Program-made: the position numbers and the translations under genes
Notes under the pieces: generated by a model
What the model was told of the DNA's origin: nothing
The model's database searches: none
What the model saw: only the letters and a program-made list of their open reading frames with translations
Part shown: piece by piece, positions 19,516 to 62,287 of the stretch
Layout: every line of letters begins with the position of its first letter
Position numbering within the stretch: the first letter of the stretch is position 1
Source of the DNA: an uncultured Planctomycetaceae bacterium
GTDB lineage: Bacteria; Planctomycetota; Phycisphaerae; Sedimentisphaerales; UBA12454
NCBI GenBank assembly: GCA_964619675.1
Contig: CAZUEO010000001.1
Location: 2,138-66,137, forward strand
Direction: 5' to 3'
Length of the DNA stretch: 64,000 nt

Positions 19516-19589
<74 letters not shown>

Positions 19590-31919: not shown

Positions 31920-31972
31920 ATTCTTTATTCCAATTTCATATTCGTGTTCATTCGTGGTTAAGTTTGACCAAT

Positions 31973-32046: not shown

Positions 32047-32109
32047 AAGCCTTTATTTTGCAGTATGTTACAGTAATTAATCGCAAAAATCAAGTATTTT
32101 GAATTTACT

Positions 32110-45045: not shown

Positions 45046-45249
45046 ATGCAATTCGGTAATGGTTTAAAGAAGAATCTGGTATTGTTTACAGCAGTTGTCG
45101 TTCTATCGGTCTGTATTAGCCGGTCCGCCTTTGCTGGCGACTTAAACGAAGATTGCAGAGTTGACTTTGGGGATTTTGCGGCAGTAGCAGAAAACTGGTT
45201 GATTGATTGCCGGCTGACCCAGCAAAATCCGGCCTGCATACCTGAATAA
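45046..45249 (+). CDS. Secreted 67-aa miniprotein: a signal peptide plus a single dockerin-like segment and 3 Cys
   Basis: A strong RBS (aaaggaaaggag) lies 8-9 nt upstream of the ATG. The signal peptide is ...VVVLSVCISRSAFA|G. The mature part GDLNEDCRVDFGDFAAVAENWLIDCRLTQQNPACIPE carries the same motif as the N-terminus of the 445..3918 protein and the C-terminal region of the giant protein. Confidence 0.6.
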   Translation: MQFGNGLKKNLVLFTAVVVLSVCISRSAFAGDLNEDCRVDFGDFAAVAENWLIDCRLTQQNPACIPE

Positions 45250-45363: not shown

Positions 45364-48300
45364 TCATGGTTGATTATCAAAATACGTGTGCCAATCTATC
45401 GAAGGAGCGGTGGTGTTACCGTATTTGTCTTTTGTATAAACTCTGTAGCCGGAATGATTTGTATTTGGGTACGGCCCTGCTCGGTAGTATGGGGTATCAA
45501 TCCAGCCGCTGTCGGTACCGCTGCTGGTGTAGCAATCGAAGTAATACCAGACAACTCCGCTATCATCTGTAGCGGTAGTAGCTGTCATAATATGGTACCA
45601 CCAATCTAATGGATAGTTAGGGTCTAAACCCTGTACGGCTTGAGGCACAGAGGCCCATGTGCTCGGGTTTGGTTGCGGCGGCGTCGTATCATTTGGCTCG
45701 TTTGGCTCCTCGCCTGGGGGCGGTGTGGTAGCTGAGGCAGGAATTGAGTAAGCCGTTTCGTTTTGTGCCGGTGATTTATCGCGAGCCTTTACCCGATAAG
45801 TGTAGGTTGTATTAGGTTCGAGGCCGAGGTCCTCGTAAGTTTCGCTGGCTTGCCAGTCACAATCATGGCAGTCTGGTGGGCTGACACAGTCGAAATAGTA
45901 TTCAGGTGGTCCACAGGCATCGGTGGCGGTCGCTGCCGTCATACTGATTGAGTTCGACGATGTTGGGTGAGGCGCTATTGCCCATAGCATTGGATCCGGC
46001 TGGGGCGGAGCGTCATCCTGGCCTACTACCGCATAGCTGATAATGCTCCAGTCGGTCTCATTGCCTTGTTCATCCTTTGCCTTGACGCGGTAACCGTATT
46101 GTACTCCAATGGTAAGACCGGTGTCGGTGTAGGTTGAATTCGGACCCCAGGGTTGGTCATGACCGCTTCCATATACGCAGTCAAAGTAATATTGTATGGA
46201 TGAACCTGAATTATCTCTGGCGGTGGTCGCTGTCATTGTAATTTTAGTTATATCTGCCGAGTGAGGCCTTATAGCCCATGTCATCGGGTCCGGTTTTGGC
46301 GGAACGGTTTCCGTATCACCGTAGTTTGCGGCAAAGGCTGCAAAGTCTTCAAAGTCAACCTCACCATCTTCGGTTATGTCTCGTTCGTGACAGAAGTACG
46401 GGAAGATGCAGCCTGATCTCATCCAGTACTCGAAAAAGAGACCGGCATCGATATCATCAACAATACCGTCAAAGTTAAAATCGCCGAGTATATCAGCGGT
46501 CAGCGTATAATGGTACCCCATATCAACAATACCTGAATCAATTGCCATGCCTTTAACTGTTACATGGTCTGTTCTTGTAGTGTGTCGGTACATATCATTG
46601 TCGATTGCCGGGCTGGAACCGCTGTTGACACAGTTGCTGTCTACTGTCTGGAGAGGCTCGCCGGTTATAATCTGGCTGAGATAATAGTCTCCCCAGTAGC
46701 CGGTAACAAACAGCGGGCTTGTTAATGTTGTGCCGGTAAGGTTGTTTGCATCGTCCCAGTTGAGTATGCAGCCATTCTCGGTGTCAACAAATACGTTTGC
46801 TGCTCCGTCCTCTACATCGCTGTACCAGACGCTTACTTCGGCTCTTAATTTATCTGCGGCATAGGATGGACTTCCTACTGAGATTTGCGGGCCGTATTCC
46901 GCGTTGTTGCTCCAGATTATACTGTTAATGACTTTTGTGTCGGCTTCGTAAGCACAGCTCAGGCCGCCGCCCATGCCGGTGGCAAAACCGCCGCCTGTTA
47001 TAATGTTGTGTGCTATAGTACAGTTTGAAAGAGTGAGCTGCGCATCCCAGTTGGATGATATCCCGCCGCCGTCCCTGCCGGCGTTGTTGTGTATGATAAG
47101 ACAGTTGTGCATGCTTGGCGCAAGCTCGCCAGAGAAGTAAACTCCGCCGCCGCTTGTGGAAGCTTCATTATTGATGATTTCGCAGTCGTAGAATTTTGCA
47201 TCGCTTGATGCGCAGTAAATCGCACCGCCCTGACCTGCCGGGTCAATAGCTAAATTGCCGTTAAAATCGCATTCAAAGACAATGGAGTTGCTATCGGCAA
47301 GCAGCATAGCACCGCCGAGCATTGAAGTACAGTTTTCAAAATAGCATCTGCTTATGTGGGCGATTGAATCTTCCCAGTACATTCCGCCGCCGGCGCAGGC
47401 CCGGTTATTAATGAAGGCGCAATTTTTGAAGACTGGTATCGCAGTGCCTTCTGCACAGACTGCGCCGCCGTAGCTTACCACCGAGTCGTACAGGACGGTT
47501 TCTTCTATTGTTACTCCTACTGTATCTGGATTGGGTACATTGGGGTCAGAACCTGCTATCTGGCCTCTGGTATGAGCTTCGTTGTCAACAAAGTCACAGT
47601 CTGTGAAATTGGCCTCGCTTCCGGCTGCCATATATACGGCGCCGCCGAACGAGTCGATGGCATAATGTTGCATCGGGTAGCCGGCAATGTTGTCTGTACC
47701 GCTTATGCCGCAGACACCGCCGTAAGCACGGTTGCCCTGGAATAGACATTTCTCAAATTCCGGTTTGCTGCCGCCCATACAGTAAATAGCGCCACCGTAG
47801 CCGCTGTAGTACCAGTATCCCTGGTATGGTCCGAAGTCCCATGTATGATATGCGTTATCATTGGGGTCGCCCCAGTTTCCGCCGTGTCCGCGTCGGCCGG
47901 CACCATCCATACCATTACTGCCTTGAGCGTAGCAGTCTATGAAAGCGCAGTTTTTAAACAGCGGATTGCTTTCAGAATCAATGGCTACGGCGCCACCCCG
48001 TGCCCAGCCTGCCCAGCCGCCGTCTCCCTCGTTGCCTGTACCGTCGCAGCCATTGCTGGCAAGTGCCGAACAGTCGATGAATTGGCAGTTGCGAATTGTG
48101 GGCGAAGCATTGTATAGATTCATCGCGCCGCCGAAAATACTTCCGCCGTTACGACCGTCACCTGTTGGTCCGTGAGCCTCTTCTGGGCTACAGTCAATAT
48201 AGCCCCCATAATAATGAGCATCCTGGATGGATATTCCGTCCAGAATCATAGTTCTGTCGACATTCGCGAGCCGGAAACCGTTGCCCTGCAGGATAGTCTC

Positions 48301-51300
48301 CGCTACTACGCAGGGGTCATCCGGATTTGTGCCGGTAATCGTGATGTTCTTGCCGTTGATGATGATTTTTGCAGGGTCATAATTGGACTCTGAGCCGGCA
48401 TATATTCCCTTGGCAAGAATAATTTTGTCTCCGCTTTTGGCGTCATTTACTGCATTCTGCAGAGAGGTATATTCACCTGGTACATATAGATTTTTCGGTT
48501 GTTCAAATGATACTGTAACCTGCCTGTCGCGAATCATAACAACGTAGTTTGTTATATTGGTTGAACTGTCATCATCTGTGCCTGCCCATTGATTTACTCG
48601 CCAGCCGGCATCGGGTATGGCAGTAAGTTCAACGGTTGTACCGGCATAGTATTGGCCGCTGGGTGGCGCAATATTTCCATGACCGCCGACAGCGGCCGTT
48701 GTAAGATTGAATCGGCCGGGTTTGTTAGCCTCGATGTCGATGTAGTGGTAGCCGATATCAAGCTGGCCCGCATCGCCGGCGTTTATACTGGCATCGCCGC
48801 TGTCAATTCTGGTTGTATAATCAGCCATATTATTATCAGGCAGAACGCTGACATTCGCGGCAAGCGCACTGCCGGCGTCGATAGCCAGGCTGTCGGTATC
48901 ATCCGGGGCAGAAGGAATTTTCTGGCTGAGATAGTATTCGCCCAAATCGCCTGTTACAAATAGCGGCGGGCTTAACGGATTAGACCTGCTACCTGCCCCG
49001 TTGTTGCCGGCAGTTGCACTGTTGAGCGCGTCAATGTTGACATTCGGATCGCTTGTATTAAGTGTCTTATAGGTAATGCCGGAATCACGGTCATAGAAAT
49101 CCCCATCGTAGTTATCATAGAACAGACAGTATGAAATATTCGGGTCGCTGTCATCGCTGCTTTCGTAGATTGCAATTCGTTTTGTTTGGTCGAAGATGCA
49201 GTCTTTTATAATCGGCGAACTGTTATATGCGCAGAGGACTGCGCCGCCATAGCCGCCCGGTTCGGTTCCATTTTCGCTGAAGCTGCAGCTTGTTATTTGC
49301 GGCGAGGAGTTAAGCGCGATGAACACCGCACCACCTCTTGCATTGGCGGAATTTTTGGCAAACAGACAATTATGCATCCTGGAGGTTGTGGTAGAAGGCC
49401 CCCTGAACATAATACCGCCGCCGCTAAACAGCGAAGTGTTATTCATTATTTGGCAGTTGATAATTTCAAGCGGCAGATTTGATATAAAGGCACCGCCGCC
49501 TTCGGCGTTTGTGCCGATAGCTCTGTTGTACATAATGGCGCCGCCGTGAATTTTGGCGGTTGACCTTTCGCTAATGAGGTACAAACCGCCTCCGGCAGAA
49601 GCGGTATTTCTGTTGATATAACAGTTAACGAACGTGGCGTTGAAGTTCTTGGCGGTAATCGCACCGCCTATGTTGCCTGCAATGTTGTCGGTGAAGGCAC
49701 AGTTGTTAAAGTCCAGGACGCATAGATTAGTGTCTGTGGTTTCGCCTATTGCCAAGGCGCCGCCGTCGCCGTTTGAGTCAGTCGCGGTATTTCCACCGAA
49801 GTAGCAGTCTGTTAATTTAATATTGTTATTTGCACCGGACCAGATAGCACCACCGCTGCCCTGCGTTGCACTGTTACCGGTCATATTGCTTTTGGAAATT
49901 GTTATACCGGCACAATTTCTTTCGGAATAGATAGCACCGCCACCAGTGTCGTACATATTGCTGATATCTGCTTGTGTGGTATTGTTGGCAAAGTTGCAAT
50001 CGTTTATGTCGGCTGTAGCACCTGTTTCATAATAGATTGCACCTCCAAAACCTGCGCCGATAGATGCGCCGTCGGAGCCGTCCTGCGGATATGGCGGGTC
50101 ATCCGGTATCAGGCCTGCACCCTGCAGGCCGCCTTGTCCGCCGAGCCCCTGCGAAGCGGTATTTTCAAGGAAATTGCATCTGATTATTTTTGGATTGGCG
50201 CCCGCTGCTGCGTAAATAGCACTGCCGTAACCGCGGCCTGAGCCGTTTCCGCCGTTTCCACCATCGCCGCCGATTTTGTTGGCTGTTCCGTCACTGCCGT
50301 TTCCGCCATCGCCGCCAATGCCGCCTCGTGCGGTGCAATTGCTGATTGTGCAGTTAAGTATCAATGGGCTGCTGTTCTGGCCGCAGAAGAAGACGCCGCC
50401 GTAGCCGTTGCCGGAGCCGCTTCCGCCGCGGCCGCCCTCACCATAACGTGGATGATCTTCGTCGCGAGTATACTCATCTGTAGTCAAGCCATAACCATCC
50501 CGACCATTATTTCCACGTCCACCGGTAACTTCGCAATTGGAAAAGATGCAGTTGCGGATTATCGGGCATGTATTTACATCACAGTATATAGCGCCGCCGT
50601 AACCATTGCCTGTAGCATTATCGCCGTGATAAATAGTATAATTAGGAGAGGCGGGGTACGAGATCATCTCCGGCTGATAACCTTCGGCAATTGAACCAGC
50701 TACCGAACAGTTGGTTATTGTGAAGCCTTCAATAATACTGTTTGCGTCTTCCCCATTTTGGAAGATAAACGCGCGGCCTCCGTTGTTGCAGTCAATAATG
50801 GTCTGCGTGACGACGTTCGGGTCGTTGGGGTCTTCAGAACGTATTTTTATAGCCTTGCCTTTGAAATCCAGACCATTGGGGCCTGTTATATAATGAGGCT
50901 GGCCGTTGGTTTTTCTGTAAACGTAGATGGTGTCGCCGCTTTCAGCAGCGTCGATTGCATCCTGAATATTTTCATATTCGTCAGGCACAATTAGGTTTTT
51001 CGGTGTATAGTATTCAAATCTGACGATAACATGTTTGTTGCTGTCCATAATAAGGGTGAAGTTTTGGTTGTGCGTTTCATAAACTGTGTCGTCGATAATC
51101 CACATAGCCACGCGGCAGTTGACATTCGGGATTGCATGCAGCCTTACCATAATGTTTTCATAGACTTGGTAGGTGTTGCCGGGCAACCAGGGCGCCTCGA
51201 TTGTGCCGTTAACGTCCGGCGGATTGTTCATATCAATTCTTAATTCATAGCGTCGTACATCTGTAGAATAATGATAGCCAAGGTCGACAATATTATTAAC

Positions 51301-57300: not shown

Positions 57301-60300
57301 TTCAAAATAATATGTTGCGGTAGGATCGCCGACTCCGCCACCTGTAAGTATCGAGAATATATTGATATTTTTATTATTGGCTACTGTCGTAACATCTTCC
57401 AGTATGTAGCCTGTGGTTGGCTCCGGGTCATGCGGCGGAGCATCTCCCATAAGGATGATTATCTTCTTTACCTTTGTATTACTTCGCCAATTACCCAGCG
57501 AATTACCGTCGATGCAGTGCATCAGGCCTGAATAGACAGATTCCGGCCAATCTGCGCCGCCGGCAGGAGTAAGTCCGTCAAGGGCCGTCTGGATGTCGAT
57601 CTTGTTAGTGGTGAATAATGAGTCATCCTTATAAGGATAGTCGGTATCACCGCCGTAAGGCGATGTATTAAAGTCTTTGAAGTCAACGACAGCGATTCTA
57701 TAATCCTTGGTATTTTCAGCGATTCTGTCAACGATATCGGAAGCTGCCGCCTTGATTGAATCCAGTACGCTGCCCATACTGCCGGTTGTGTCAATGCAGA
57801 AGACCACATCGATAGCTTGGGGGGCAGCTTGGTTTGACCCCTGTATATCGCTGTATTTAATAATAACATTTGCGGGCATATCAGTGAATGGTCCGCCATT
57901 GGTTAATGCGATTTGTGAACCATCAATACCGCTGTTTGCCCAGAATATAGTATCTTTTACGTTTATGTTGGCTGCATATGAAGCAAACAAACCGCCGCCA
58001 TTGCTGTTCACATCAGATACTATATTTTCTGTTATTGTGCAGTTTTGGATTTTCGGTTCCGCATAGTATATTGCGGCAATACCGCCACCCTCTTCTATTG
58101 CCCTGTTTGCGGTAATCAGGCAGTTTTTGATTTGGGGTATTTGGATAAATGGCGTGTCGCCGTCAAAACAGATGCCTCCGCCTGTGAGCCTTGCGTAGTT
58201 TTCGGTTACAAAAGTGTCGTTGATGTCTATCAGCGAGTTGAGTGCGTATATACCGCCGCCAGTTCCGAAAAGAGCATAACCGGCATCGGTATAATAGCCT
58301 GTTTGTGTGCCGGCAATATTTCCTTTGATTATTGAATTGCTTATTGTTCCTACGCTGTCGAGAGCAAGAACGCCGCCGCCGGCCATAGAGATATTATTCG
58401 ATATATTGCAGTCGCTGATATGCATATCAACAACTCCCTCACTATATATGCTGCCGCCGAGAGGTGCAGAGTTGAGGACAAAGTTGCATTCGTTGATATC
58501 GGCAGTAAATGCATACCACAGACACAACCCGCCGCCACTGCCGGTATATTCGCCCCCATAAGGTGTGATATCGATCCCTGTTAAATCCCGGTAATTGGGG
58601 TCGTCGAAATCCTGATTGTATGCAGTTCTGTTGTCCTCAAAATGACAGCCATTGAATTTGACAGATGAAGCGGTTGAACAGAATACACCTGCGCCGAGAC
58701 CTGCCATGCGGTAATTTTTGCGAGGCTGTTCTTGATAACCAGACCCGGCATAACGACCGCCAACACCGCTTATGCTGCCGTAGACCGTATTTTCTGTGAA
58801 GCTACAGTTTATAAATTCTGCTGCCGATGAATTATCACAAAATGCAGCACAGCCGGTTGATGTGTACATTTTTATATCAGCCGGAGCGACAGTCGGCTCA
58901 ATGGTAAGTCCCCCGTAACCTCCAAATCCTCCCGCAAAAAAGATTGGACCACCGTCTCCGCCGTTTCCGCCAATTCCACTGACTCCTATGCAATTTTCAA
59001 TTTGACAGCCTGATAATACCGGAACTGAATTGCTGCAATATATTCCTGCACCTTTTACTTTTCCTGGGAGTCCGCCATTGCCACCATCGGTGTCTTCTGC
59101 ACCGGTGCCGCCGTTCCCGCCAATTCCAGATATAGCAAGGCAATTTCTGACGGTAACATTCGTAAGATGTGCATTTTCTTGTCTGATACAAATGGCGGCA
59201 CCTATAACATCTCCGCCGTATCCACCAATTCCGCTTGTGCCTGGTGGAAAATAATTGGCACCTGGGTCAAGCAAGTTAGCCTGATTGGAAAATCCGCTTG
59301 CACCGTTGCCGCCATCTCCGGCAACAGCAATGCAGTCTTCAATCAGAACATTCATAATGTTTGGGTTGCCGGACTGTACATAAATACCTGCGCCGCCGGC
59401 ATTGCCGCCCCATCCGCCATCGCCGCCATCTGGATCCTCTAGGATATTTGGGTCACCGCCTGGGGTACCTGGGCCCGCATTGCCTCCAAAAACTCCGCAA
59501 TTTCTTATAATGCAATTCTTGACATTATGGCTGCCACGAATGGTGATTGCTCCGCCAAAAAGCGATAGCGAATTGCCATTGTATGGATTATTCTGGTGGT
59601 CGGTTTGGGTCGGCCAGCCGTCCTCACCGGGAATTGGGTTCATGCCCATCGTTCCATATCCAATCAACGAGTTTATTATAGTAACGCCGTTAAGGGTGCA
59701 AGGATTAGCCGGGTTACCAGGATCACCGATAAGCACGAACCCAAGATTGGCAGGTGCTTCGCCACCGCAATCGATTACAACATTTTCGGGATGTGTAGGG
59801 TCGCCGACTACAGTAATAATTTTGTTTATGACAAAACCTGTCCCGATATAAGTGCCCTCGTGGATTCTTATCGTATCGCCGTTCTGTGCCTGATTGATTG
59901 CGTTCTGTATGCCGTTGACATCGCCAAAGACGTGTATCACCCTGCTGTAATTAAGCTCAAACGTTACAGTAACTGTCTTGTTGGCGGCGCCCATTGTAAC
60001 AGTGTACGTATTCACATTCCAAGTCCCCGCAACTGGCACGCCGTCTTCTGTCCATCCCGCGACTCGATATCCCTCATTTGGTTCCGCTGTCAATTTTATC
60101 TGGGTTCCTTCAGGGAACATGCCGCTGGCGGGTGTTACCGAACCCCAACCGGGGTTGGGAGCGACACTGATGGCAAGCTGATATTGTGGTATGGCCTCAA
60201 ATTCAACTGTAACGGTCTTGGCGGTATTCATTGTTACGGTGTTTGTAAGAGCCGTTGAATTATTGTCATTTGTGCCTGTCCACAGCTTGACTTTATAGCC

Positions 60301-61965
60301 GGCATCAGGTGTTGCTGTAAGCGGGACAATCGATCCTTCCGGCCAGTAGCTGCGTCTTGGGCTTATTAAGCCATTGCCGCCGGTAACGCTGGTATTGAGC
60401 AGATGTTTTATCGAATTAGGCTCAAATTCGACGGCGACGGTAGTATTTGTCAGAAGTGTTACACTATATGGAGTATTAGAATCATTACTTTGGGTGTATG
60501 TATTAGCATCGTTGATGTCGAATGTTTCACTGTCGCCTTTTAGCCATCGTTTTATTACGTAGCCGGGGTTAGGATGGGCGTTTATATCAATGACACTATG
60601 TTGGACGAAAGGCTGCGCATTATAGTCGTCGATTGAGCCATTGGGGTCGATAGTGAAGGTTGTAAGTTCGCACATTACTATTGAGCTGAACCTGACGACC
60701 ACAGTGTGATTGGCGTCCATAATAACAATTCTTGTCTCATTGTTGTCGTCGATTTCGTTGGAATCAATAATCCATTTCTCAATGTAGTAATTCGGGTCCG
60801 ATGGAGTTGCTCTAAGAAGCACTTCTGTAAACTGCTTGATGAAATTCGGGTCGTTGCCGGGGAGGTTTGAGTCTATTGTTATCGTGCCGAGATTTTCGTT
60901 GGGTTCAACAGCGATAATAAGCACGTAATTGGCATCAATGCCGCTATCGGGATAATGGAATCCCATATCGACGGTATTTGTGTCAGGGACGTTATCTGTT
61001 CTTGTGATGCTGTATTCTGTGTCAGGCATGTTTGCATCGTTGCCGTCGTCAGCCACGCCAATGCCTGCATTGACACAGTTGCTGTCGGGAGGAAACTGTC
61101 CTGCTGCTGTCTGAGTTAAATAATAATTACCGAGAGGGCCTGTTTTAAATATCGGGTTAGAACTTATGTTTCCTGTTCCGCCGTCGCCATCCTGAATGCA
61201 GGAATAGGTGGCTGTTGCACCGTATATGTCGTCGCCGTTGTCCCAGAGGATACAGTTTCTTATTGTTGGGACGCTTATGTCTGTAGCGTAGATGCCGCCG
61301 ATGTTTGCATCGCCGTTGTTCCCTGCGATTGTACAGTTTGTAATTACAGGCGAGGAGCCGTCAAAGCAGTCGATAACGCCATATCCGTATGCCGTGTTTT
61401 CCGCAATAAGACAGTTTTTAATTGTCGGGTGCGATTCGCTACTGGCTTCAATAGCACTGCCGTCAAGGTAGGAGGTGTTTTTTGTTATAATACAGTTTCT
61501 AATAACAGGTGAGGAGTAGAAGCAGTCTATTGCACCGCCGTAAGCGGCAACACTGTTTGTTATTATACAGTTATTGATTGTGGGCGAAGAGTTTATTTCA
61601 CATTCTATCGCGCCGCCATAATACTCGCTGCCGTTTTTGATTGTAAAACCTTCCACAACCGCAGCGGGTATTTCACCGCTATGAAAGTAGAATGCCCTGC
61701 CGAGTCCGTTGCAGTCAATGATACAGGTTGCGGGATTTTTCTTTAGGCTGTAAATTCTGATTGTTTTTCCGCCGAAGTCGAGGTCTCTATTGCCCGGCCC
61801 TGTATAAGTACCATCGGCAACGACAATTAAGTCACTACCGCTTGCGGCATTGATTGCTGCCTGTATTGTAGGATACAGGCCGGAAGGCACGTTCAGAATT
61901 GCTGCTGTTGTAAAGGTGTTTAAAAGGAATGTTACGATTAAACAAAATGTAAATTTCTTAGTCAT
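45364..61965 (-). CDS. Giant (about 5,533 aa) secreted modular beta-helix / PMP-repeat adhesin-like protein
   Basis: A single uninterrupted ORF runs 45364..62025. The likely start is the ATG at 61965, which has GGAG 7 nt upstream and is followed directly by the signal peptide MTKKFTFCLIVTFLLNTFTTAA. The protein holds six right-handed beta-helix modules rich in GGAI...N[CS].F..N repeats, each ending in a DP.F......YYL.Q....S.C.D.G......TR.D...D....D.G[FY]HY cap. Eight InlB-B-repeat-like domains, vWA, choice-of-anchor-L, NIDO-like, dockerin-like and 3 FN3-like domains are also present. Confidence 0.9.
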   Translation of the reverse strand: MTKKFTFCLIVTFLLNTFTTAAILNVPSGLYPTIQAAINAASGSDLIVVADGTYTGPGNRDLDFGGKTIRIYSLKKNPATCIIDCNGLGRAFYFHSGEIPAAVVEGFTIKNGSEYYGGAIECEINSSPTINNCIITNSVAAYGGAIDCFYSSPVIRNCIITKNTSYLDGSAIEASSESHPTIKNCLIAENTAYGYGVIDCFDGSSPVITNCTIAGNNGDANIGGIYATDISVPTIRNCILWDNGDDIYGATATYSCIQDGDGGTGNISSNPIFKTGPLGNYYLTQTAAGQFPPDSNCVNAGIGVADDGNDANMPDTEYSITRTDNVPDTNTVDMGFHYPDSGIDANYVLIIAVEPNENLGTITIDSNLPGNDPNFIKQFTEVLLRATPSDPNYYIEKWIIDSNEIDDNNETRIVIMDANHTVVVRFSSIVMCELTTFTIDPNGSIDDYNAQPFVQHSVIDINAHPNPGYVIKRWLKGDSETFDINDANTYTQSNDSNTPYSVTLLTNTTVAVEFEPNSIKHLLNTSVTGGNGLISPRRSYWPEGSIVPLTATPDAGYKVKLWTGTNDNNSTALTNTVTMNTAKTVTVEFEAIPQYQLAISVAPNPGWGSVTPASGMFPEGTQIKLTAEPNEGYRVAGWTEDGVPVAGTWNVNTYTVTMGAANKTVTVTFELNYSRVIHVFGDVNGIQNAINQAQNGDTIRIHEGTYIGTGFVINKIITVVGDPTHPENVVIDCGGEAPANLGFVLIGDPGNPANPCTLNGVTIINSLIGYGTMGMNPIPGEDGWPTQTDHQNNPYNGNSLSLFGGAITIRGSHNVKNCIIRNCGVFGGNAGPGTPGGDPNILEDPDGGDGGWGGNAGGAGIYVQSGNPNIMNVLIEDCIAVAGDGGNGASGFSNQANLLDPGANYFPPGTSGIGGYGGDVIGAAICIRQENAHLTNVTVRNCLAISGIGGNGGTGAEDTDGGNGGLPGKVKGAGIYCSNSVPVLSGCQIENCIGVSGIGGNGGDGGPIFFAGGFGGYGGLTIEPTVAPADIKMYTSTGCAAFCDNSSAAEFINCSFTENTVYGSISGVGGRYAGSGYQEQPRKNYRMAGLGAGVFCSTASSVKFNGCHFEDNRTAYNQDFDDPNYRDLTGIDITPYGGEYTGSGGGLCLWYAFTADINECNFVLNSAPLGGSIYSEGVVDMHISDCNISNNISMAGGGVLALDSVGTISNSIIKGNIAGTQTGYYTDAGYALFGTGGGIYALNSLIDINDTFVTENYARLTGGGICFDGDTPFIQIPQIKNCLITANRAIEEGGGIAAIYYAEPKIQNCTITENIVSDVNSNGGGLFASYAANINVKDTIFWANSGIDGSQIALTNGGPFTDMPANVIIKYSDIQGSNQAAPQAIDVVFCIDTTGSMGSVLDSIKAAASDIVDRIAENTKDYRIAVVDFKDFNTSPYGGDTDYPYKDDSLFTTNKIDIQTALDGLTPAGGADWPESVYSGLMHCIDGNSLGNWRSNTKVKKIIILMGDAPPHDPEPTTGYILEDVTTVANNKNINIFSILTGGGVGDPTATYYFESLAEDSGGIMFETPDGSQAGNAVMQAIDLATRVGTPIYAEQGCTIIGLEQDANDTWIVSPDSNNIAEDPNFVFEYYLSHIATGQDIDSNCIDAGSSLASILGLDTYTTRIDGVFDSAMVDMGFHYWNAVSEHNITVKILADPNYPGIHGTMTAEPNRLVSYDANTATYKFKFYAGTAPTLTATPDVNYFVKGWYDKNNTKVSANNTFSFTVEANDTYFLRFKPEKITSVSGGGTALRNAVELAENGDTLIVAAGTYNGGINIGGKQIKLYGVNPDDPNVVEKIIIDCTGTIRGFVFSGDETAETVIDGFTIINGGGDTIEGGAIFIDTDSSPLIVNVDISNCNAGNASGGAIYISTGSNPEFRNVNITNCSATINGGGVYISTAGNPIFKNCSITDCDAGINGGAAYCRTLSSPQFINCSFSNNSADSAGAIFYETLCNVNLQGCEFTNNSANQDAGAIMCSLACIVEVNDCNFAGNNADYAGGIYIDEDCDGVIAQTSFSGNETIEDGGAIYITDSNVIEITDCNINTNTALRGGGIFTFASPKVTINNCNINSNQAYILATYLLDPTDPFSVVEDDSLIGEGGGIYAFAGPARIENCQIKFNNARTSGGGIYLSGPIDTNDVNSTLVKNCLIAQNSSGRDGGGVSVNWYANASLENCTIAYNNLTKRGYESSYGGGLYCSYASHTNVINCLIWGNTAEDGTQLAVGSGDVGYPLPATVNVTYSNIGPRFDPNYTQEALAPSLEITLTDNAVTLANAILGPGVTLVGSPGFTGSNNSAGLFKGGIAAGIKIESGIILTNGDANLALPPNNNDGSTGNNTLAGDPDLDTLVPESNTYDATILTFQFTTTGGDLYFNYIFASEEYNEFVNSPYNDIFAFFLDGQNIALIPGTTTPVAINNVNGGNPLGTNAANPYLYNNNDLTDGGPFYDIEYDGFTNMLTAQAPSLGAGIHTIKLAIADTSDYVLDSAVFIQAGTFSDTPTLVNLEPIYVEQGCTLNWDPNGGWHTLSYNSDEDPPLFIKGYYLSQVEAGQEANSPCVDTGSNLASILGFDTLTTRIDGVNDVNIVDMGYHYSHGIPPTPQYDITVKILEDPNYPSIHGTITAEPNGLVSYDANTATYTYRFDAGTIPVFTAIPDANYFVRGWYDANSTKISATESTTFIVDSNNTYFVRFKPARTIQVSGGGSALRNAVELAENGDSLIVAAGTYDGGINIGGKQIKLYGVNPDDPYIVARTIIDCNGSGRGFIFAGGETADTIVDGLTIINGGGDAIAGGAIFIDINSSPLIVNVDISDCDVTNASGGAIYISNGSNPEFRNVNITNCSATMNGGGVYISTASNPIFKNCSITDCDTGINGGAVYCRTLSSPQFTNCSFTNNYAANSAGAIFYEALCNVNLQGCEFTGNTSQNDAGAVMCGPTCAIEVNDCNFAGNDADYAGGIYINEGCDGVIARTSFSGNEATEDGGAFYITDSNAIKITDCNITENTALRGGGIFAIASPKVTITNCQINSNLAYRLETNIYYTDPNDPNTAITEYDDNFIGEGGGIYAFASINKTENCLITYNLARTSGGGIYISGEQSDQNCPLIKNCLIVSNKSSRDGGGISTNWFAATNIKNCTIAQNFVNGNGYQRALGGGIYGSYGSNTQIIDSILWSNAGAEASQIAVGSGDANNPIPSIMNVTYSDIAHPNDVGYITTGQTIRPGFNTYTLARNDDLSTELVDFGFTINFFGLLRSQCYVNNNGNITFNAPLVTFTPFGLTTNIGTPIIAPFFADVDTRAAGSNLVTYGHGTVNGRPAFGVNWLDVGYFSYYTDKLNSFQLIIIDHSDRALNDFDMEFNYQKIQWETGDASGGTNGFGGYSARAGYSNGTGRAGTFYEVEGSGANGAFLDSNPNGLIYREYHSGLQGGFLFRVEGGQPEMPIIGAGLPLVYAEPGCTINWDPNSGWAPDSNNIEDDPNFVFGYYLAQGPAGQDSNSPCIDIGSDTAEALGLNTLTTRADGVVDGVNDVNNIVDLGYHYSTDVRRYELRIDMNNPPDVNGTIEAPWLPGNTYQVYENIMVRLHAIPNVNCRVAMWIIDDTVYETHNQNFTLIMDSNKHVIVRFEYYTPKNLIVPDEYENIQDAIDAAESGDTIYVYRKTNGQPHYITGPNGLDFKGKAIKIRSEDPNDPNVVTQTIIDCNNGGRAFIFQNGEDANSIIEGFTITNCSVAGSIAEGYQPEMISYPASPNYTIYHGDNATGNGYGGAIYCDVNTCPIIRNCIFSNCEVTGGRGNNGRDGYGLTTDEYTRDEDHPRYGEGGRGGSGSGNGYGGVFFCGQNSSPLILNCTISNCTARGGIGGDGGNGSDGTANKIGGDGGNGGNGSGRGYGSAIYAAAGANPKIIRCNFLENTASQGLGGQGGLQGAGLIPDDPPYPQDGSDGASIGAGFGGAIYYETGATADINDCNFANNTTQADISNMYDTGGGAIYSERNCAGITISKSNMTGNSATQGSGGAIWSGANNNIKLTDCYFGGNTATDSNGDGGALAIGETTDTNLCVLDFNNCAFTDNIAGNIGGAITAKNFNATFVNCYINRNTASAGGGLYLISERSTAKIHGGAIMYNRAIGTNAEGGGAFISNLPLEIINCQIMNNTSLFSGGGIMFRGPSTTTSRMHNCLFAKNSANARGGAVFIALNSSPQITSCSFSENGTEPGGYGGAVLCAYNSSPIIKDCIFDQTKRIAIYESSDDSDPNISYCLFYDNYDGDFYDRDSGITYKTLNTSDPNVNIDALNSATAGNNGAGSRSNPLSPPLFVTGDLGEYYLSQKIPSAPDDTDSLAIDAGSALAANVSVLPDNNMADYTTRIDSGDASINAGDAGQLDIGYHYIDIEANKPGRFNLTTAAVGGHGNIAPPSGQYYAGTTVELTAIPDAGWRVNQWAGTDDDSSTNITNYVVMIRDRQVTVSFEQPKNLYVPGEYTSLQNAVNDAKSGDKIILAKGIYAGSESNYDPAKIIINGKNITITGTNPDDPCVVAETILQGNGFRLANVDRTMILDGISIQDAHYYGGYIDCSPEEAHGPTGDGRNGGSIFGGAMNLYNASPTIRNCQFIDCSALASNGCDGTGNEGDGGWAGWARGGAVAIDSESNPLFKNCAFIDCYAQGSNGMDGAGRRGHGGNWGDPNDNAYHTWDFGPYQGYWYYSGYGGAIYCMGGSKPEFEKCLFQGNRAYGGVCGISGTDNIAGYPMQHYAIDSFGGAVYMAAGSEANFTDCDFVDNEAHTRGQIAGSDPNVPNPDTVGVTIEETVLYDSVVSYGGAVCAEGTAIPVFKNCAFINNRACAGGGMYWEDSIAHISRCYFENCTSMLGGAMLLADSNSIVFECDFNGNLAIDPAGQGGAIYCASSDAKFYDCEIINNEASTSGGGVYFSGELAPSMHNCLIIHNNAGRDGGGISSNWDAQLTLSNCTIAHNIITGGGFATGMGGGLSCAYEADTKVINSIIWSNNAEYGPQISVGSPSYAADKLRAEVSVWYSDVEDGAANVFVDTENGCILNWDDANNLTGTTLTSPLFVTGYWGDYYLSQIITGEPLQTVDSNCVNSGSSPAIDNDMYRHTTRTDHVTVKGMAIDSGIVDMGYHYTLTADILGDFNFDGIVDDIDAGLFFEYWMRSGCIFPYFCHERDITEDGEVDFEDFAAFAANYGDTETVPPKPDPMTWAIRPHSADITKITMTATTARDNSGSSIQYYFDCVYGSGHDQPWGPNSTYTDTGLTIGVQYGYRVKAKDEQGNETDWSIISYAVVGQDDAPPQPDPMLWAIAPHPTSSNSISMTAATATDACGPPEYYFDCVSPPDCHDCDWQASETYEDLGLEPNTTYTYRVKARDKSPAQNETAYSIPASATTPPPGEEPNEPNDTTPPQPNPSTWASVPQAVQGLDPNYPLDWWYHIMTATTATDDSGVVWYYFDCYTSSGTDSGWIDTPYYRAGPYPNTNHSGYRVYTKDKYGNTTAPSIDWHTYFDNQP
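45367..46300 (-). other. Three C-terminal FN3-like domains of the giant protein
   Basis: PP.P[DN]P..WA..P....(n)..M.A..A.D......YYFDC....W....Y.D.GL.....Y.YRVKA.D occurs three times. No LPXTG, PEP-CTERM or other sorting signal is recognisable after them. Confidence 0.6.
46318..46500 (-). other. Dockerin-like module near the C-terminus of the giant protein
   Basis: The module reads DFNFDGIVDDIDAGLFFEYWMRSGCIFPYFCHERDITEDGEVDFEDFAAFAANYG. The second half maps to 46318-46380. Confidence 0.6.
51560..52215 (-). other. NIDO (nidogen-like) domain in the giant protein (follows duplication copy 2)
   Basis: CYVNNNGNITFNAPLVTFTPF......PIIAPFFADVDTR, FGVNWLDVGY, NSFQLIIID and FNYQKIQWETGD parallel the NIDO pattern (NG..SF...F.P......IAPFWADVD...W..V.Y...NTFQ..L...F.Y..I.W). 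Confidence 0.6.
52300..54345 (-). repeat. Intragenic tandem duplication, copy 2
   Basis: See copy 1. Protein-level examples are GVNPDDPNVVEKIIIDCTG... versus GVNPDDPYIVARTIIDCNG..., and NVNITNCSATINGGGVYIST versus NVNITNCSATMNGGGVYIST. Confidence 0.9.
54370..55085 (-). other. Choice-of-anchor-L-like domain in the giant protein (follows duplication copy 1)
   Basis: GIILTNGDA...GDPDLD...DATILTFQFTTTGGDLYFNYIFASEEYNEFVNSPYNDIFAFFLDGQNIALIPG...IEYDGFTNMLTAQA...IKLAIADTSDYVLDSAVFIQAGTFS matches the family signature as I remember it. Confidence 0.65.
55150..57200 (-). repeat. Intragenic tandem duplication, copy 1 (junction, Ig-like domain and beta-helix module)
   Basis: It aligns with 52300..54345 at an offset of about 2850 nt. 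For example, 56161-56220 and 53311-53370 differ at 6 of 60 positions. Confidence 0.9.
57200..57816 (-). other. von Willebrand factor A (vWA) domain embedded in the giant protein
   Basis: AIDVVFCIDTTGSMGSVLDSIK maps to 57781-57816 and has the MIDAS D-x-T-x-S pattern. It is followed by YRIAVVDFKD, GGADWPES and IIILMGDAPPH. Confidence 0.8.
59950..60950 (-). other. Four tandem InlB-B-repeat-like (Ig-like) domains within the giant protein
   Basis: Repeats end ...HTVVVRFS, ...TTVAVEFE, ...KTVTVEFE and ...KTVTVTFE. They contain the A.P..GY.V..W pattern (TATPDAGYKVKLWTG, TAEPNEGYRVAGWTE). Coordinates are approximate. Confidence 0.6.
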
Positions 61966-62287
61966 AAATTTGCTCCATCCTGACAAATTTACATAGCCTT
62001 TTTTGAATTTTTTTACCTCGGTCATTTTTTAATACCCTGCCAAAGTTTATATTTTATGCGCATTACACAATTCAGGCTGAGTCATTATTAGGTCTGTCCG
62101 TAACCTTATTGAACTCTGTCTTCCTCACTGCCTGCCTAAAATTGCCGGCAGTGGAAACCGAGTGTCCCGCCTCCTTAAGCCCCAAACAATTCACAAATTT
62201 TATCAGGCTTTTAATCATATTGCAAGACAAAAACATCAATTTAGCTCTTTCAGCAAGCCTTTCTGGTAAAAGAAGTTCCGTTATTTA

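What the first reader, a model, noticed from the sequence alone, without database searches (positions are those of the whole stretch)
45364..62025. A 16.6-kb single-ORF gene encoding a protein of about 5,530 aa with six PMP-type beta-helix modules and an unusual mix of eukaryote-like adhesion domains
This one ORF occupies 26% of the window. My reading of its architecture, N- to C-terminal, is:
- signal peptide
- beta-helix 1 with cap (about 61965-60950)
- 4 InlB-B-repeat-like domains
- Gly-rich beta-helix 2 (about 59950-57820)
- vWA (57816-57200)
- junction, Ig-like domain and beta-helix 3
- choice-of-anchor-L-like domain
- junction, Ig-like domain and beta-helix 4
- NIDO-like domain
- junction, Ig-like domain and Gly-rich beta-helix 5 with cap (about 51000-48740)
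- Ig-like domain and beta-helix 6 with cap (about 48500-46510)
- dockerin-like module
- 3 FN3-like domains

The GGAI/FxxN repeats match the chlamydial polymorphic-membrane-protein type, which fits a PVC origin. Having vWA, NIDO, choice-of-anchor-L and FN3 in a single polypeptide suggests a multivalent adhesin or cell-surface fibre for attaching to particles, polysaccharide or other cells. No autotransporter barrel, LPXTG, PEP-CTERM or T9SS-like C-terminal domain is apparent, so both the export and anchoring route and the ligand are unknown.
Basis: partly seen in the sequence, partly recalled or inferred. Interest (0 to 1): 0.68.

Follow-up and report, generated by a model that had tools for sequence, protein, structure and literature searches.

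The report
Giant modular beta-helix surface protein
This 16.6-kb gene is real. It encodes a secreted giant protein of a Phycisphaerae (Planctomycetota) bacterium: a chain of six rigid beta-helix rods carrying three plug-in binding domains and ending in a conserved docking tail. It belongs to a large, undescribed but database-abundant family, so it is a well-dissected example rather than a singular oddity.

Summary
The ORF 45364-62025 (-) is uninterrupted at 5,553 codons, or about 5,533 from the likely start, Met21.

The interpretation needs revising in four ways:
- The 'junctions' are the C-terminal caps of the beta-helices. VWA, choice-of-anchor L and NIDO are cargo domains inserted at one fixed site between the last rung and the cap.
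- This grammar, [beta-helix-(cargo)-cap-Ig]n ending in cap-dockerin-3xFN3, is shared by many Planctomycetota/Phycisphaerae proteins of 2,000-7,600 aa. Five cargo classes recur: S8 protease, VWA, NIDO, choice-of-anchor L and one unknown.
- The gene sits at a conserved locus next to an aminotransferase. Six positional orthologs differ in module number and cargo. All six carry a subtilase, and this copy has none.
- NIDO, VWA and FN3 are common bacterial domains, so the mix is not unusual.

There is no autotransporter barrel or known sorting signal. The two-component genes are not consistently linked, and the miniprotein is not conserved.

Best reading: a Sec-exported, cell-surface display fibre for adhesion, tethered through its dockerin-FN3 tail. 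The anatomy is shown. The location, the tether and the ligands are inferred.

The parts
61966..62025 (-). In-frame 20-codon leader upstream of the probable true start. It is likely a 5' UTR carrying the ribosome-binding motif TCAGGATGGAGC rather than protein.
   Evidence: Homolog N-termini start at residue 21. The 27 nt before the ATG are nearly invariant in 6 loci, and all 5 substitutions are nonsynonymous.
61900..61965 (-). Sec-type signal peptide, aa 21-42 (MTKKFTFCLIVTFLLNTFTTAA | ILNVP).
   Evidence: This is the only 19-aa window with Kyte-Doolittle score above 1.6 in the whole protein. The same MNKK, h-region, STAA pattern is conserved in homologs.
60952..61899 (-). Beta-helix 1 (aa 43-277) with a directly attached cap (aa 287-358).
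   Evidence: Pfam Beta_helix at 63.5 bits. The cap HMM gives 100 bits.
59941..60912 (-). Four tandem Ig-like InlB B-repeat (Flg_new_2) domains, aa ~372-695.
   Evidence: Pfam PF18998 at 134.6 bits, 4 stretches.
57844..59928 (-). Gly-rich beta-helix 2, aa ~700-1394, ending in the terminal rung ...VIIKYSDI.
   Evidence: The AlphaFold model shows repeated three-strand rungs. There is internal homology to BH3, BH4 and BH6. The terminal-rung HMM gives 108.5 bits.
57241..57813 (-). Cargo 1: an integrin-beta-I-like VWA domain (aa 1405-1595) with the MIDAS-type motif D-x-T-x-S...D.
   Evidence: Pfam VWA_4 at 50.5 bits and VWA at 37.8 bits. Foldseek top hits are integrin beta I domains at E about 6e-8. 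The motif is conserved across the family's VWA cargos.
56926..57108 (-). Cap of beta-helix 2 (aa 1640-1700, ending VDMGFHY).
   Evidence: The cap HMM gives 100 bits. In P0240 and the MAG ortholog the same cap follows the BH2 terminal rung directly, without a VWA.
56692..56919 (-). Ig-like spacer, aa 1703-1778.
   Evidence: Flg_new_2 partial hit. Local Ig HMM.
55120..56688 (-). Beta-helix 3, aa ~1780-2302. It is a recent paralog of beta-helix 4.
   Evidence: Beta_helix at 97.4 bits and Chlam_PMP at 23 bits. It is 72-83% identical to aa 2753-3147.
54373..55041 (-). Cargo 2: choice-of-anchor L domain, aa 2329-2551.
   Evidence: NCBIfam NF038133 at 232.1 bits against a cutoff of 27.
54085..54264 (-). 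Cap of beta-helix 3, aa 2588-2647.
   Evidence: The cap HMM gives 97.5 bits.
53836..54063 (-). Ig-like spacer, aa 2655-2730.
   Evidence: Local Ig HMM. It is homologous to aa 1703-1778.
52261..53832 (-). Beta-helix 4, aa ~2732-3255.
   Evidence: Pfam Beta_helix. The terminal-rung HMM gives 101 bits.
51580..52113 (-). Cargo 3: NIDO (nidogen-like) domain, aa 3305-3482. It is the best-conserved part against the MAG ortholog, at 88% identity.
   Evidence: Pfam PF06119 at 95.9 bits. Identity profile.
51268..51465 (-). Cap of beta-helix 4, aa 3521-3586.
   Evidence: The cap HMM gives 87 bits.
51001..51252 (-). Ig-like spacer, aa 3592-3675.
   Evidence: Flg_new_2 at 19.6 bits, which is weak. Local Ig HMM.
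48742..50988 (-). Gly-rich beta-helix 5 (aa ~3680-4335) with a directly attached cap (aa 4352-4428).
   Evidence: Beta_helix at 45.2 bits. Cap HMM at 85 bits and terminal rung at 74.6 bits.
48490..48720 (-). Ig-like spacer, aa 4436-4512.
   Evidence: Flg_new_2 at 49.1 bits.
46507..48483 (-). Beta-helix 6 (aa ~4515-5071) with a directly attached cap (aa 5102-5173).
   Evidence: Beta_helix at 70.4 bits and Chlam_PMP at 24.4 bits. Cap HMM at 102 bits.
46306..46500 (-). Dockerin-like module, aa 5176-5240. It has two D-x-[NT]-x-D-G-x-x-D-x-x-D calcium loops and a conserved Cys pair between them.
   Evidence: Pfam Dockerin_1 at 20.5 bits, below the 22.9 cutoff. phmmer against the PDB hits CelS type I dockerin 2mte at E=4e-4. 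The model shows three helices at pLDDT above 87. C127 and C133 are nearly invariant in 65 homologs.
45376..46290 (-). Three FN3-like beta-sandwich domains, aa 5246-5550. They form the C-terminus, leaving a tail of only 3-5 aa.
   Evidence: fn3 at 23.8 bits, below the cutoff of 25. The AlphaFold model has pLDDT above 90. Foldseek matches tandem FN3 arrays at E about 4e-11, probability 1.0.

Best explanation
What it is: a Sec-exported, extracellular or cell-surface display fibre of a Phycisphaerae (Planctomycetota) bacterium. It belongs to a large uncharacterised family of multi-beta-helix giants.

Shown:
- Six right-handed parallel beta-helices with PMP-type GGA[ILV]/FxxN rungs form rigid rod segments.
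- Each helix ends in a conserved cap of about 70 aa (...DPxF...YYLS...SPC[IV]D.G...TTR.D...VDMGYHY).
- The helices are joined by Ig-like InlB-B-repeat spacers.
- In three modules a whole globular domain is spliced in at one fixed site between the last rung (...YSDI) and the cap. These are an integrin-beta-I-like VWA with an intact MIDAS-type motif, choice-of-anchor L, and NIDO.
- The polypeptide ends in a cap-dockerin-3xFN3 cassette that terminates nearly all full-length family members.

Inferred:
- The rods hold the cargo domains away from the cell as multivalent ligand-binding heads.
- The calcium-dependent dockerin-FN3 tail tethers the fibre to a still unknown cohesin-like or envelope partner. 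This would make it a single-polypeptide analogue of a cellulosome or 'planctosome'.
- Because the orthologs carry a subtilase head that this copy lacks, this allele is a purely adhesive variant of a scaffold that elsewhere also carries a protease.
- Module duplication and cargo swapping at a fixed chromosomal locus diversify the surface phenotype.
For: Anatomy.

Fixed insertion site:
- In 150 family proteins, the 200 rung-to-cap gaps are strictly bimodal. 136 are 60 aa or shorter, none lies between 60 and 200 aa, and 64 are 200-700 aa.
- The inserts fall into five classes: S8 (23), VWA (18), NIDO (10), an unknown domain (8) and choice-of-anchor L (5).
- At the same BH2 site the window has a VWA, P0240 and the MAG ortholog have nothing, and P0241 has an S8.

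C-terminal cassette:
- 98 of 148 representatives have the dockerin. In 92 of those it is followed only by FN3 domains and the C-terminus.
- The same cassette ends proteins with unrelated N-terminal parts, including peptidase M10, RCC1, FG-GAP, pectate lyase and LamG. It is C-terminal in most.

Export:
- A single N-terminal hydrophobic segment and no other TM segment.
- The signal peptide is conserved in homologs.
- Choice-of-anchor L is by definition a domain of surface proteins (NCBIfam NF038133).

Functional constraint:
- NIDO is 88% identical to the MAG ortholog, against 54-56% for the Gly-rich helix.
- MIDAS residues are conserved across 8 family VWA cargos.

Locus behaviour:
- Positional orthologs have 4 to 6 or more modules and different cargos, while the flanking aminotransferase is 79-88% identical.
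- BH3 and BH4 within the window are up to 83% identical to each other, closer than to the ortholog.

Literature: giant planctomycetal genes are predicted surface or adhesion proteins (PMC5177795). A cohesin-dockerin 'planctosome' has been proposed for Phycisphaerae (PMC6461901).
Against: - There is no experimental evidence for expression, location or ligand.
- No cohesin or other partner was found in the window or in the flanks of six orthologous loci.
- Non-cellulosomal dockerin-like modules often have no known partner.
- How a folded acidic protein of about 5,500 aa (net charge about -356) crosses the outer membrane is unknown. No secretion system is linked to the gene.
- Packing of the cap against the helix, with the cargo as an excursion, could not be inspected. 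The tools return no coordinates, and the cap was modelled at low confidence.
- The beta-helices could themselves be catalytic.
Confidence: 0.55

Rival explanations
1. Extracellular polysaccharide-degrading polyenzyme. The beta-helix (CASH/pectate-lyase-like) modules would themselves be lyases or hydrolases. VWA, NIDO and choice-of-anchor L would then serve as substrate-targeting modules, as in multi-domain CAZymes carrying a dockerin.
For: - Right-handed beta-helices (PF13229) are the fold of many polysaccharide lyases and hydrolases.
- The same C-terminal dockerin-FN3 cassette ends proteins with pectate-lyase and CBM domains (P0208, P0231).
- Large PVC proteins with tandem CASH helices have been read as catabolic (PMC12057145).
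Against: - No CAZyme-specific family scored in Pfam or NCBIfam. Only the generic Beta_helix, NosD and PMP repeats matched.
- The rungs carry PMP-type adhesin motifs.
- The enzymatic cargo found in orthologs is a protease, not a glycanase.
Confidence: 0.2
2. Chlamydial-Pmp-like type V autotransporter adhesin. The beta-helical passenger would be exported through its own C-terminal barrel.
For: Chlam_PMP repeats pass the Pfam cutoff on segments, at 23-24.4 bits against 20.6. GG[AG][ILVF] is enriched 13-fold over shuffles. The source is a PVC bacterium.
Against: - No Autotransporter (PF03797) or PMP middle-domain hit at E<=1 in any segment.
- The C-terminus is dockerin plus three FN3 domains, modelled at pLDDT above 90 as helices and beta-sandwiches, not as a barrel.
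- There is no partner TpsB/Omp85 gene nearby.
Confidence: 0.03
3. Structural envelope or matrix component, such as an S-layer-like coat, holdfast or aggregate matrix fibre, rather than a ligand-specific adhesin. The cargo domains would mediate self-association or calcium-dependent cross-linking.
For: - The protein is extremely acidic, rich in Gly, Asn and Asp, and has calcium-binding loops.
- VWA and NIDO mediate matrix assembly in animals (established knowledge).
- Small NIDO proteins commonly carry PEP-CTERM, an exopolysaccharide-associated sorting signal.
Against: - Rapid turnover of module number and cargo among positional orthologs fits an interaction or diversification surface better than a conserved structural lattice.
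- All six orthologs carry a protease head.
Confidence: 0.17
4. Assembly artefact or decaying pseudogene: a chimeric or expanded repeat array that is not a real single gene.
For: - The gene is internally repetitive.
- The MAG ortholog is broken across two contigs exactly inside the gene.
- No near-identical contig exists in the metagenome collection.
Against: - The reading frame is open for 16.6 kb with no stops.
- The longest exact repeat is 28 nt, and no 31-mer is repeated.
- Positional orthologs with the same grammar are intact in five other assemblies.
- The domain order obeys the family grammar perfectly.
Confidence: 0.03

Closest known systems
Uncharacterised giant multi-beta-helix proteins of Phycisphaerae/Planctomycetota MAGs, for example MBE0536993.1 'choice-of-anchor L domain-containing protein' (5,585 aa) and HIJ51613.1 (5,047 aa)
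   Same: They share the same grammar: beta-helix, optional cargo, cap and Ig spacers, ending in cap-dockerin-3xFN3. They draw on the same cargo classes, have the same signal peptide, and several sit at the same chromosomal locus.
   Different: Among the seven syntenic copies, this one uniquely combines VWA, choice-of-anchor L and NIDO and lacks the S8 subtilase. Identity to the best relatives is only 55-69%.
Chlamydial polymorphic membrane proteins (Pmp; type Va autotransporters)
   Same: A right-handed beta-helix built from GGA[ILV]/FxxN repeats. PF02415 matches above its cutoff on segments. Both come from the PVC superphylum.
   Different: There is no PMP middle domain and no C-terminal beta-barrel. 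This protein has six helices in series with inserted domains and a dockerin-FN3 tail.
Cellulosomal dockerin-bearing enzymes and the proposed 'planctosome' of Phycisphaerae (PMC6461901)
   Same: A C-terminal type-I-like dockerin with two calcium loops. The idea of a surface-tethered multi-function assembly is also shared.
   Different: Here the functional heads are fused into one polypeptide rather than assembled on a cohesin scaffoldin. No cohesin was found nearby. The dockerin has a Cys-containing linker and is followed by three FN3 domains.
Planctomycetal 'giant genes' (Reva & Tummler 2008; Kohn et al. 2016, PMC5177795) and large CASH-helix proteins of other PVC lineages (PMC12057145)
   Same: The gene is longer than 5 kb, the product is predicted to be extracellular with adhesion or carbohydrate-type domains, and the gene lies in a variable region.
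   Different: Those reports give only InterPro-level descriptions. The rung-cargo-cap insertion rule and the universal terminal cassette were not described in the papers I could search.
Integrin beta-subunit I-like (VWA) domain
   Same: The VWA cargo's best structural matches are integrin beta I domains, with about 245 aligned columns at E about 6e-8. Pfam Integrin_beta gives 24.4 bits. A MIDAS-type metal site is present.
   Different: Only 16-18% identity. The domain is inserted in a bacterial beta-helix rather than a hybrid domain. The motif is D-x-T-x-S instead of D-x-S-x-S.

Membership tests
Chlamydial Pmp / type Va autotransporter | GGA[ILV] and FxxN repeat motifs (PF02415) | tested here: met
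   Chlam_PMP scored 23.0 and 24.4 bits on two segments against a cutoff of 20.6. GG[AG][ILVF] occurs 50 times against 3.8 +/- 1.8 in shuffles, and F..N 36 times against 19.8 +/- 3.9.
Chlamydial Pmp / type Va autotransporter | C-terminal autotransporter beta-barrel (PF03797) and PMP middle domain (PF07548) | tested here: not met
   Neither family hit at E<=0.01 on the halves or at E<=1 on ten segments. The modelled C-terminus is three helices plus three beta-sandwiches.
Right-handed parallel beta-helix repeat proteins (PF13229) | Repeated three-strand rungs matching the Beta_helix HMM | tested here: met
   The two halves scored 154.6 and 176.1 bits, with 11 stretches in total. BH2, which has no HMM hit as a segment, is modelled as triplet-strand rungs.
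von Willebrand factor A domain | HMM match and a MIDAS metal-binding motif | tested here: met
   VWA_4 at 50.5 bits and VWA at 37.8 bits. D-T-T-G-S...D-A-P-P is conserved in 8 family members. The Rossmann-like model matches integrin beta I domains. Metal binding itself was not tested.
Choice-of-anchor L domain (NF038133) | Full-length HMM match above the curated cutoff | tested here: met
   232.1 bits against a cutoff of 27, covering profile positions 2-219 of 219.
NIDO / nidogen-like domain (PF06119) | Full-length HMM match above the gathering score | tested here: met
   95.9 bits against a cutoff of 25, covering profile positions 2-185 of 186. More than 3,000 bacterial homologs exist.
Type I dockerin | Two EF-hand-like calcium-binding loop-helix repeats matching PF00404 | tested here: inconclusive
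   Pfam gives 20.5 bits, below the 22.9 cutoff. phmmer against the PDB hits CelS dockerins 2mte and 1daq at E=4e-4 and 2e-3, spanning both loops. Both D-x-[NT]-x-D-G-x-x-D-x-x-D loops are visible in the sequence. The model shows helices at pLDDT above 87.
Type I dockerin | A cognate cohesin partner | not testable with these tools
   No cohesin family appeared in the window ORFs scanned or in the orthologous flanks. The rest of the genome is not available.
Fibronectin type III | Seven-strand beta-sandwich matching FN3 | tested here: met
   Pfam fn3 gives 23.8 bits, just below the cutoff of 25. Three sandwiches modelled at pLDDT above 90 match tandem FN3 arrays (CD45, contactins, LAR) at E from 4e-11 to 1e-9, probability 1.0.
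InlB B-repeat-like Ig (Flg_new_2, PF18998) | HMM match above the gathering score | tested here: met
   Four tandem copies give 134.6 bits, and the pre-BH6 copy 49.1 bits. The pre-BH3 copy (21.7 bits, cut by the segment boundary) and the pre-BH5 copy (19.6 bits) are weak.
Known C-terminal sorting or anchor signals (PEP-CTERM, LPXTG, T9SS CTD, MYXO-CTERM, GlyGly-CTERM) | A C-terminal signal domain, or a TM helix plus a basic tail | tested here: not met
   No such family hit at E<=1 in Pfam or NCBIfam on the last 404 aa. There is no hydrophobic segment outside the signal peptide. The sequence ends ...WHTYFDNQP.
Phycisphaerae multi-beta-helix / dockerin-FN3 giants (unnamed family defined here) | Terminal-rung and cap pairs, with cargo only at that site, Ig spacers, and a terminal cap-dockerin-FN3x3 | tested here: met
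   The architecture string of the window protein obeys the same grammar as P0274, P0277-P0308 and others. There are 680 cluster representatives at E<=1e-30 for the rung plus cap query.
Planctomycetal 'giant gene' (longer than 5 kb, Reva & Tummler criterion as used in PMC5177795) | A single ORF longer than 5 kb in a planctomycete | tested here: met
   The ORF is 16.66 kb. The closest genomes are Phycisphaerae.

The most novel reading that the evidence does not exclude
The family is a previously undescribed 'plug-in display' system. A beta-helix rod carries a dedicated insertion site just before its cap, into which whole domains (protease, VWA, NIDO, choice-of-anchor L and an unknown ~300-aa fold) are swapped by recombination. 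A universal dockerin-FN3x3 tail acts as a new surface-retention or export signal for Phycisphaerae. The locus next to the aminotransferase would then be a hot spot that generates surface-phenotype diversity between strains, with this allele a protease-less, all-adhesin variant.
Probability: 0.3. Interest if true: 0.65.

Novelty: new member of a known kind. Interest (0 to 1): 0.45.

Why it matters
Giant genes make up a sizeable, unexplained share of planctomycetal genomes. This example gives a clear parsing rule: rod, fixed insertion site, cap, Ig spacer and a terminal dockerin-FN3 cassette. The rule explains the architecture of many multi-thousand-residue database proteins among the relatives of the rung-plus-cap query, all currently labelled 'hypothetical'.

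The rule yields testable predictions:
- The tail is the tether or sorting element.
- The cargo heads define what the cell binds or digests.
- The locus diversifies between close relatives.

For particle-attached anaerobic Phycisphaerae, this bears on how cells attach to and process polymers. For protein engineering, the cap-proximal insertion site is a natural domain-display scaffold. None of this is yet experimental.

Tried and rejected
Searches that failed or found nothing:
The 5,000-aa version timed out. I therefore searched three segments instead.
- Exact-sequence look-ups of the neighbouring aminotransferase and histidine kinase found nothing. The source genome is not in that collection.
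- The metagenome scan for the BH3-CoAL-cap-Ig-BH4 junction found no near-identical contig. The best match was 47% identity. Independent confirmation of this exact allele was therefore not obtained.
- Rfam found only three tRNAs in the window.

Ideas considered and rejected:
- An RNA hairpin (AAATTTG...CAAATTT) around the ribosome-binding site. The two substitutions seen in orthologs break the pairs rather than compensate for them.
- The 20-codon leader as an ESPR-like extension of the signal peptide. All five substitutions in its conserved 27 nt are nonsynonymous, which argues for nucleotide-level rather than peptide-level constraint. The indels are all multiples of three, so this is not fully excluded.
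- A functional link to the adjacent PAS/GAF kinase and two response regulators. The block is replaced by RecO/CorC or SelB genes in two positional orthologs.
- The miniprotein as a partner. It is not conserved.

Full report
**1. The observation**

The window contains a single ORF at 45364..62025 on the minus strand. It has an ATG start and 5,553 sense codons, with no internal stop and no ambiguous base. It covers 26% of the window.

I found no sequence basis for it:
- The longest exact direct DNA repeat in the gene is 28 nt, and no 31-mer occurs twice.
- The two most similar modules are 79-87% identical at DNA level.

A scan of 185,579 species genomes found an ortholog in a Phycisphaerae MAG (isolate OBJ_0618_130150_96), 69% identical in the best segment:
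- All 15,282 nt held for one of its contigs form one open frame of 5,093 codons that runs off both ends.
- The C-terminal 490 codons lie at the start of a second contig and are followed by the same neighbours as in the window.

The probable true start is Met21 (nt 61965):
- Homologs P0245 and P0251 align from their residue 1 to residue 21 of this ORF.
- Many family members begin MNKK, then a hydrophobic core, then STAA|TLNVP.
- A GGAG-containing motif sits 8 nt upstream of that ATG.

**2. Domain content**

Pfam and NCBIfam scans of the two halves and of ten segments gave the following:

| Feature | Position (aa) | Evidence |
|---|---|---|
| Beta_helix | BH1, BH3-BH6 | 154.6 and 176.1 bits for the two halves |
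| Flg_new_2 (divergent InlB B-repeat), four tandem copies | about 372-695 | 134.6 bits |
| Flg_new_2, single copies | before BH3, BH5 and BH6 | 21.7, 19.6 and 49.1 bits |
| VWA | 1405-1595 | VWA_4 50.5 bits, VWA 37.8 bits |
| choice-of-anchor L | 2329-2551 | 232 bits, cutoff 27 |
| NIDO | 3305-3482 | 95.9 bits |
| Chlam_PMP repeats | two segments | 23.0 and 24.4 bits, cutoff 20.6 |

- The spacer before BH4 is called only by my local Ig HMM.
- GG[AG][ILVF] occurs 50 times against 3.8 +/- 1.8 in shuffled sequence.
- Dockerin (20.5 bits, cutoff 22.9) and fn3 (23.8 bits, cutoff 25) were sub-threshold, so I tested them by other means.

Tests of the C-terminal region:
- An AlphaFold2 model of the last 474 aa, built with 65 homologs, has pLDDT above 87 from residue 100 onward. 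It shows three helices followed by three seven-strand sandwiches.
- Foldseek matches those sandwiches to tandem FN3 arrays such as CD45, contactins and LAR, at E from 4e-11 to 1e-9.
- The dockerin segment alone hits the C. thermocellum CelS type I dockerin in the PDB at E=4e-4, across both calcium loops.

Tests of BH2, which had no Pfam hit as an isolated segment:
- A model of aa 700-1710 (pLDDT 70.4, pTM 0.69) shows about 24 repeated three-strand rungs, with the Gly-rich loops at low confidence. A Rossmann-type VWA follows.
- The best structural matches of that VWA are integrin beta I-like domains, at E about 6e-8.
- This agrees with a near-threshold Pfam Integrin_beta hit of 24.4 bits.

Negative results:
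- No autotransporter barrel, PMP middle domain, PEP-CTERM, LPXTG, T9SS or MYXO-CTERM family appears, even at E<=1.
- The only hydrophobic segment is the signal peptide.

**3. What the 'junctions' are**

Self-comparison shows that the stretch after each globular domain is homologous to the stretch that directly follows BH1, BH5 and BH6. It is a cap of about 70 aa ending in [DN][MLI]G[YF]HY, found at aa 358, 1700, 2647, 3586, 4428 and 5173.

Each helix also has a recognisable terminal rung ending in YS[DNC][IV]. In BH1, BH5 and BH6 the rung and cap lie 16-36 aa apart. In BH2, BH3 and BH4 they lie 245-285 aa apart, and the gap is filled by VWA, choice-of-anchor L and NIDO respectively.

Comparison with relatives shows these are insertions at a precise site:
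- After the BH2 rung, the MAG ortholog and P0240 go straight into the cap (ITYSDIDLLTGTVPIYPETGC...).
- P0241 has a subtilase there.
- The window has a VWA there.

**4. A family-wide rule**

An exhaustive HMMER search with the BH6 terminal rungs plus cap (291 aa) against 1.84 billion cluster representatives found 30,037 proteins at E<=1e-3, 8,898 at E<=1e-10 and 680 at E<=1e-30. Of the best 150 listed, 54 exceed 3,000 aa and 10 exceed 5,000 aa.

I built local HMMs for the terminal rung and the cap and scanned 148 of those listed relatives, together with the window protein and the MAG ortholog (150 proteins in all). This gave 200 rung-to-cap pairs with a strictly bimodal spacing:
- 136 pairs are 60 aa apart or less.
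- None lies between 60 and 200 aa.
- 64 pairs are 200-700 aa apart.

The 64 inserts cluster into five classes:

| Cargo class | Number of inserts |
|---|---|
| Subtilase S8 with a pro-region | 23 |
| VWA | 18 |
| NIDO | 10 |
| Domain of about 300 aa with no Pfam match | 8 |
| choice-of-anchor L | 5 |

Architecture strings for the family follow one grammar: [helix-(cargo)-cap-Ig(1-4)]n, ending in helix-cap-dockerin-FN3-FN3-FN3. Of 148 representatives, 98 contain the dockerin module. In 92 of those it is followed only by FN3 domains and then the C-terminus.

The same cassette also ends proteins with unrelated N-terminal parts, such as peptidase M10, RCC1, FG-GAP, LamG, Calx-beta and pectate lyase. 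It is C-terminal in most of them. Named members are Planctomycetota, Phycisphaerae or Sedimentisphaerales MAG proteins labelled hypothetical or auto-named, for example MBE0536993.1 and HIJ51613.1.

**5. Genomic context and evolution**

The window is chromosomal. It carries the ribosomal-protein operon with SecY, Adk, Map and RpoA, as well as EF-G, DXS, MiaA and other housekeeping genes.

The giant gene is transcribed divergently from an aminotransferase. It is followed by a PAS/GAF histidine kinase, two response regulators, a DinG-like helicase and a TPR protein.

Five further assemblies carry a giant of this family at the same place. In three, the aminotransferase-HPPK-PanC-PanD-Lgt block lies upstream and intact; in a fourth (L007) it is only partly kept; and the fifth contig (L008) is too short to show it:

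| Locus | Length (aa) |
|---|---|
| L005 | 4,762 |
| L006 | 3,870 |
| L007 | 3,915 |
| L008 | 3,933 |
| L009 | 3,768 |

- The downstream kinase and regulator block is present in L005, L006 and the MAG. It is replaced by RecO/CorC/YbeY in L007 and by SelB/SelA in L009. A functional link to the two-component system is therefore unlikely.
- The flanking aminotransferase is 79-88% identical and the kinase 71-79%. The giant is 54-88% identical by segment and differs in module number and cargo.
- All six other syntenic copies carry one S8 cargo. The window copy has none, and it alone combines VWA, choice-of-anchor L and NIDO.
- BH3 and BH4 of the window are up to 83% identical to each other. Both map to a single module of the MAG ortholog at 58-80%. 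This points to a recent tandem module duplication, or gene conversion, with different cargo in the two copies.
- NIDO is the most conserved segment at 88%. The Gly-rich half of BH2 is the least, at 54-56%.

**6. Mechanism**

Shown:
- An N-terminal Sec-type signal and no other membrane segment.
- Six beta-helical rods with caps, and eight Ig-like spacers.
- Three inserted globular heads, one with a conserved MIDAS-type D-x-T-x-S...D metal site.
- A conserved terminal dockerin-FN3x3 cassette.

Inferred:
- The protein is exported and displayed as a semi-rigid fibre. A rough length estimate is 100 nm if extended: about 130 rungs at 0.48 nm, plus 11 Ig or FN3 domains at 3.5-4 nm. This is my estimate from general structural knowledge.
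- The inserted heads are the ligand-binding or catalytic elements.
- The calcium-dependent dockerin-FN3 tail retains the fibre on the cell through an unidentified partner, in the spirit of the cohesin-dockerin 'planctosome' proposed for Phycisphaerae (PMC6461901).
- This allele, lacking the protease, is an all-adhesin variant.

Unknown:
- The outer-membrane translocation route.
- The partner of the tail.
- The ligands.
- Whether the helices have enzymatic activity.

**7. Comparison with what is known, and novelty**

Genes longer than 5 kb are common in Planctomycetes. There are up to 60 per genome, reaching 36 kb, and they are generally predicted to encode surface or adhesion proteins (PMC5177795). 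Large PVC proteins with tandem CASH beta-helices and internalin-type domains have been reported (PMC12057145). Far larger dockerin-type giants are known in Omnitrophota (bioRxiv 10.1101/2023.11.21.568195).

NIDO is abundant in bacteria, often as small PEP-CTERM proteins. So the gene is a new member of a known kind, and the 'eukaryote-like mix' is not surprising.

In the papers I could search I did not find three things described:
- the fixed rung-cargo-cap insertion rule;
- the near-universal terminal cassette;
- the cargo and module turnover at a syntenic locus.

These raise the interest moderately, but they are computational inferences.

**8. Verdict**

| Item | Verdict |
|---|---|
| Observation | confirmed |
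| Interest | 0.45 |
| Novelty | new member of a known kind |

Noticed in passing
window 61966-62110 (minus strand), compared with L005-L009: The ~150 nt upstream of the signal-peptide ATG are more conserved between positional orthologs than the coding sequence is. They include the almost invariant motif GTAAATTTGTCAGGATGGAGCAAATTT directly before the ATG, and blocks such as GACTCAGCCTGAA and TAATGCGCATAAA.TATAAA. The stretch is in frame with an upstream ATG, so gene callers extend the ORF by about 20 codons ('..KKFKGYVNLSGWSKF'). All 5 substitutions in the 27-nt core are nonsynonymous, yet all indels are multiples of 3. It could be a conserved promoter or 5' UTR, possibly with a GGA-type regulator site, or a translated leader. 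This is unresolved.
   Followed up: partly
L005 about 7945-7975 (upstream of the P0274 gene): A 30-nt near-perfect palindrome (CCCCCAACACCAATGTATTGGTGTGGGGG) is inserted in the conserved leader of one ortholog only.
   Followed up: no
window 45046-45249 (+): A 67-aa ORF convergent with the giant gene. It has a signal peptide followed by a single dockerin-like calcium loop and helix (DLNEDCRVDFGDFAAVAENW, 60% identical to the giant's second dockerin repeat) and a Cys-rich tail. It is not conserved in the equivalent intergenic regions of L002, L005, L006 or L008, and it has no Pfam or NCBIfam family.
   Followed up: partly
window 445-3918 (+) and 3921-5099 (+): A 1,157-aa protein with Big_9/cadherin-like and bacterial thrombospondin-3 repeats. 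It shows partial similarity to the gliding-motility lipoprotein CglD (100.7 bits, far below the cutoff of 400) and to the cohesion protein MtsD. It is followed by a 392-aa ORF with no family. Together they may form a second surface-adhesion locus in the window.
   Followed up: no
family proteins P0276 (aa 382-739, 1521-1869), P0281, P0299, P0305, P0306, P0319, P0364: A fifth cargo class of about 270-320 aa occupies the same rung-cap insertion site and has no Pfam match at E<=0.1. It is an uncharacterised domain, and it is absent from the window protein.
   Followed up: partly
L001 13199-15282 and L002 1-1476: The MAG ortholog is split across two contigs inside the gene. The last ~200 codons of L001 switch to a cap plus Ig sequence of the BH3/BH4 type instead of the BH6 cap. 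This suggests either an assembly break at a repeat in that MAG or an extra module.
   Followed up: partly
L006 24145-25116: A phage-integrase-family gene is inserted between the two response-regulator genes downstream of the giant in one positional ortholog. It is absent in the window and in L005.
   Followed up: no
window 26570-27205 (-): A stand-alone HNH endonuclease ORF (211 aa) lies between a flavodoxin-like gene and metabolic genes. Three tRNA genes are also present: Met and Gln at 19515-19704, and Arg at 31972-32047.
   Followed up: no
P0001 (Planctomycetota MAG fragment): A relative with the order NIDO, cap, two Ig spacers and then a caspase-like peptidase C14 domain (PF00656). The family therefore also carries protease domains outside the rung-cap site.
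   Followed up: no
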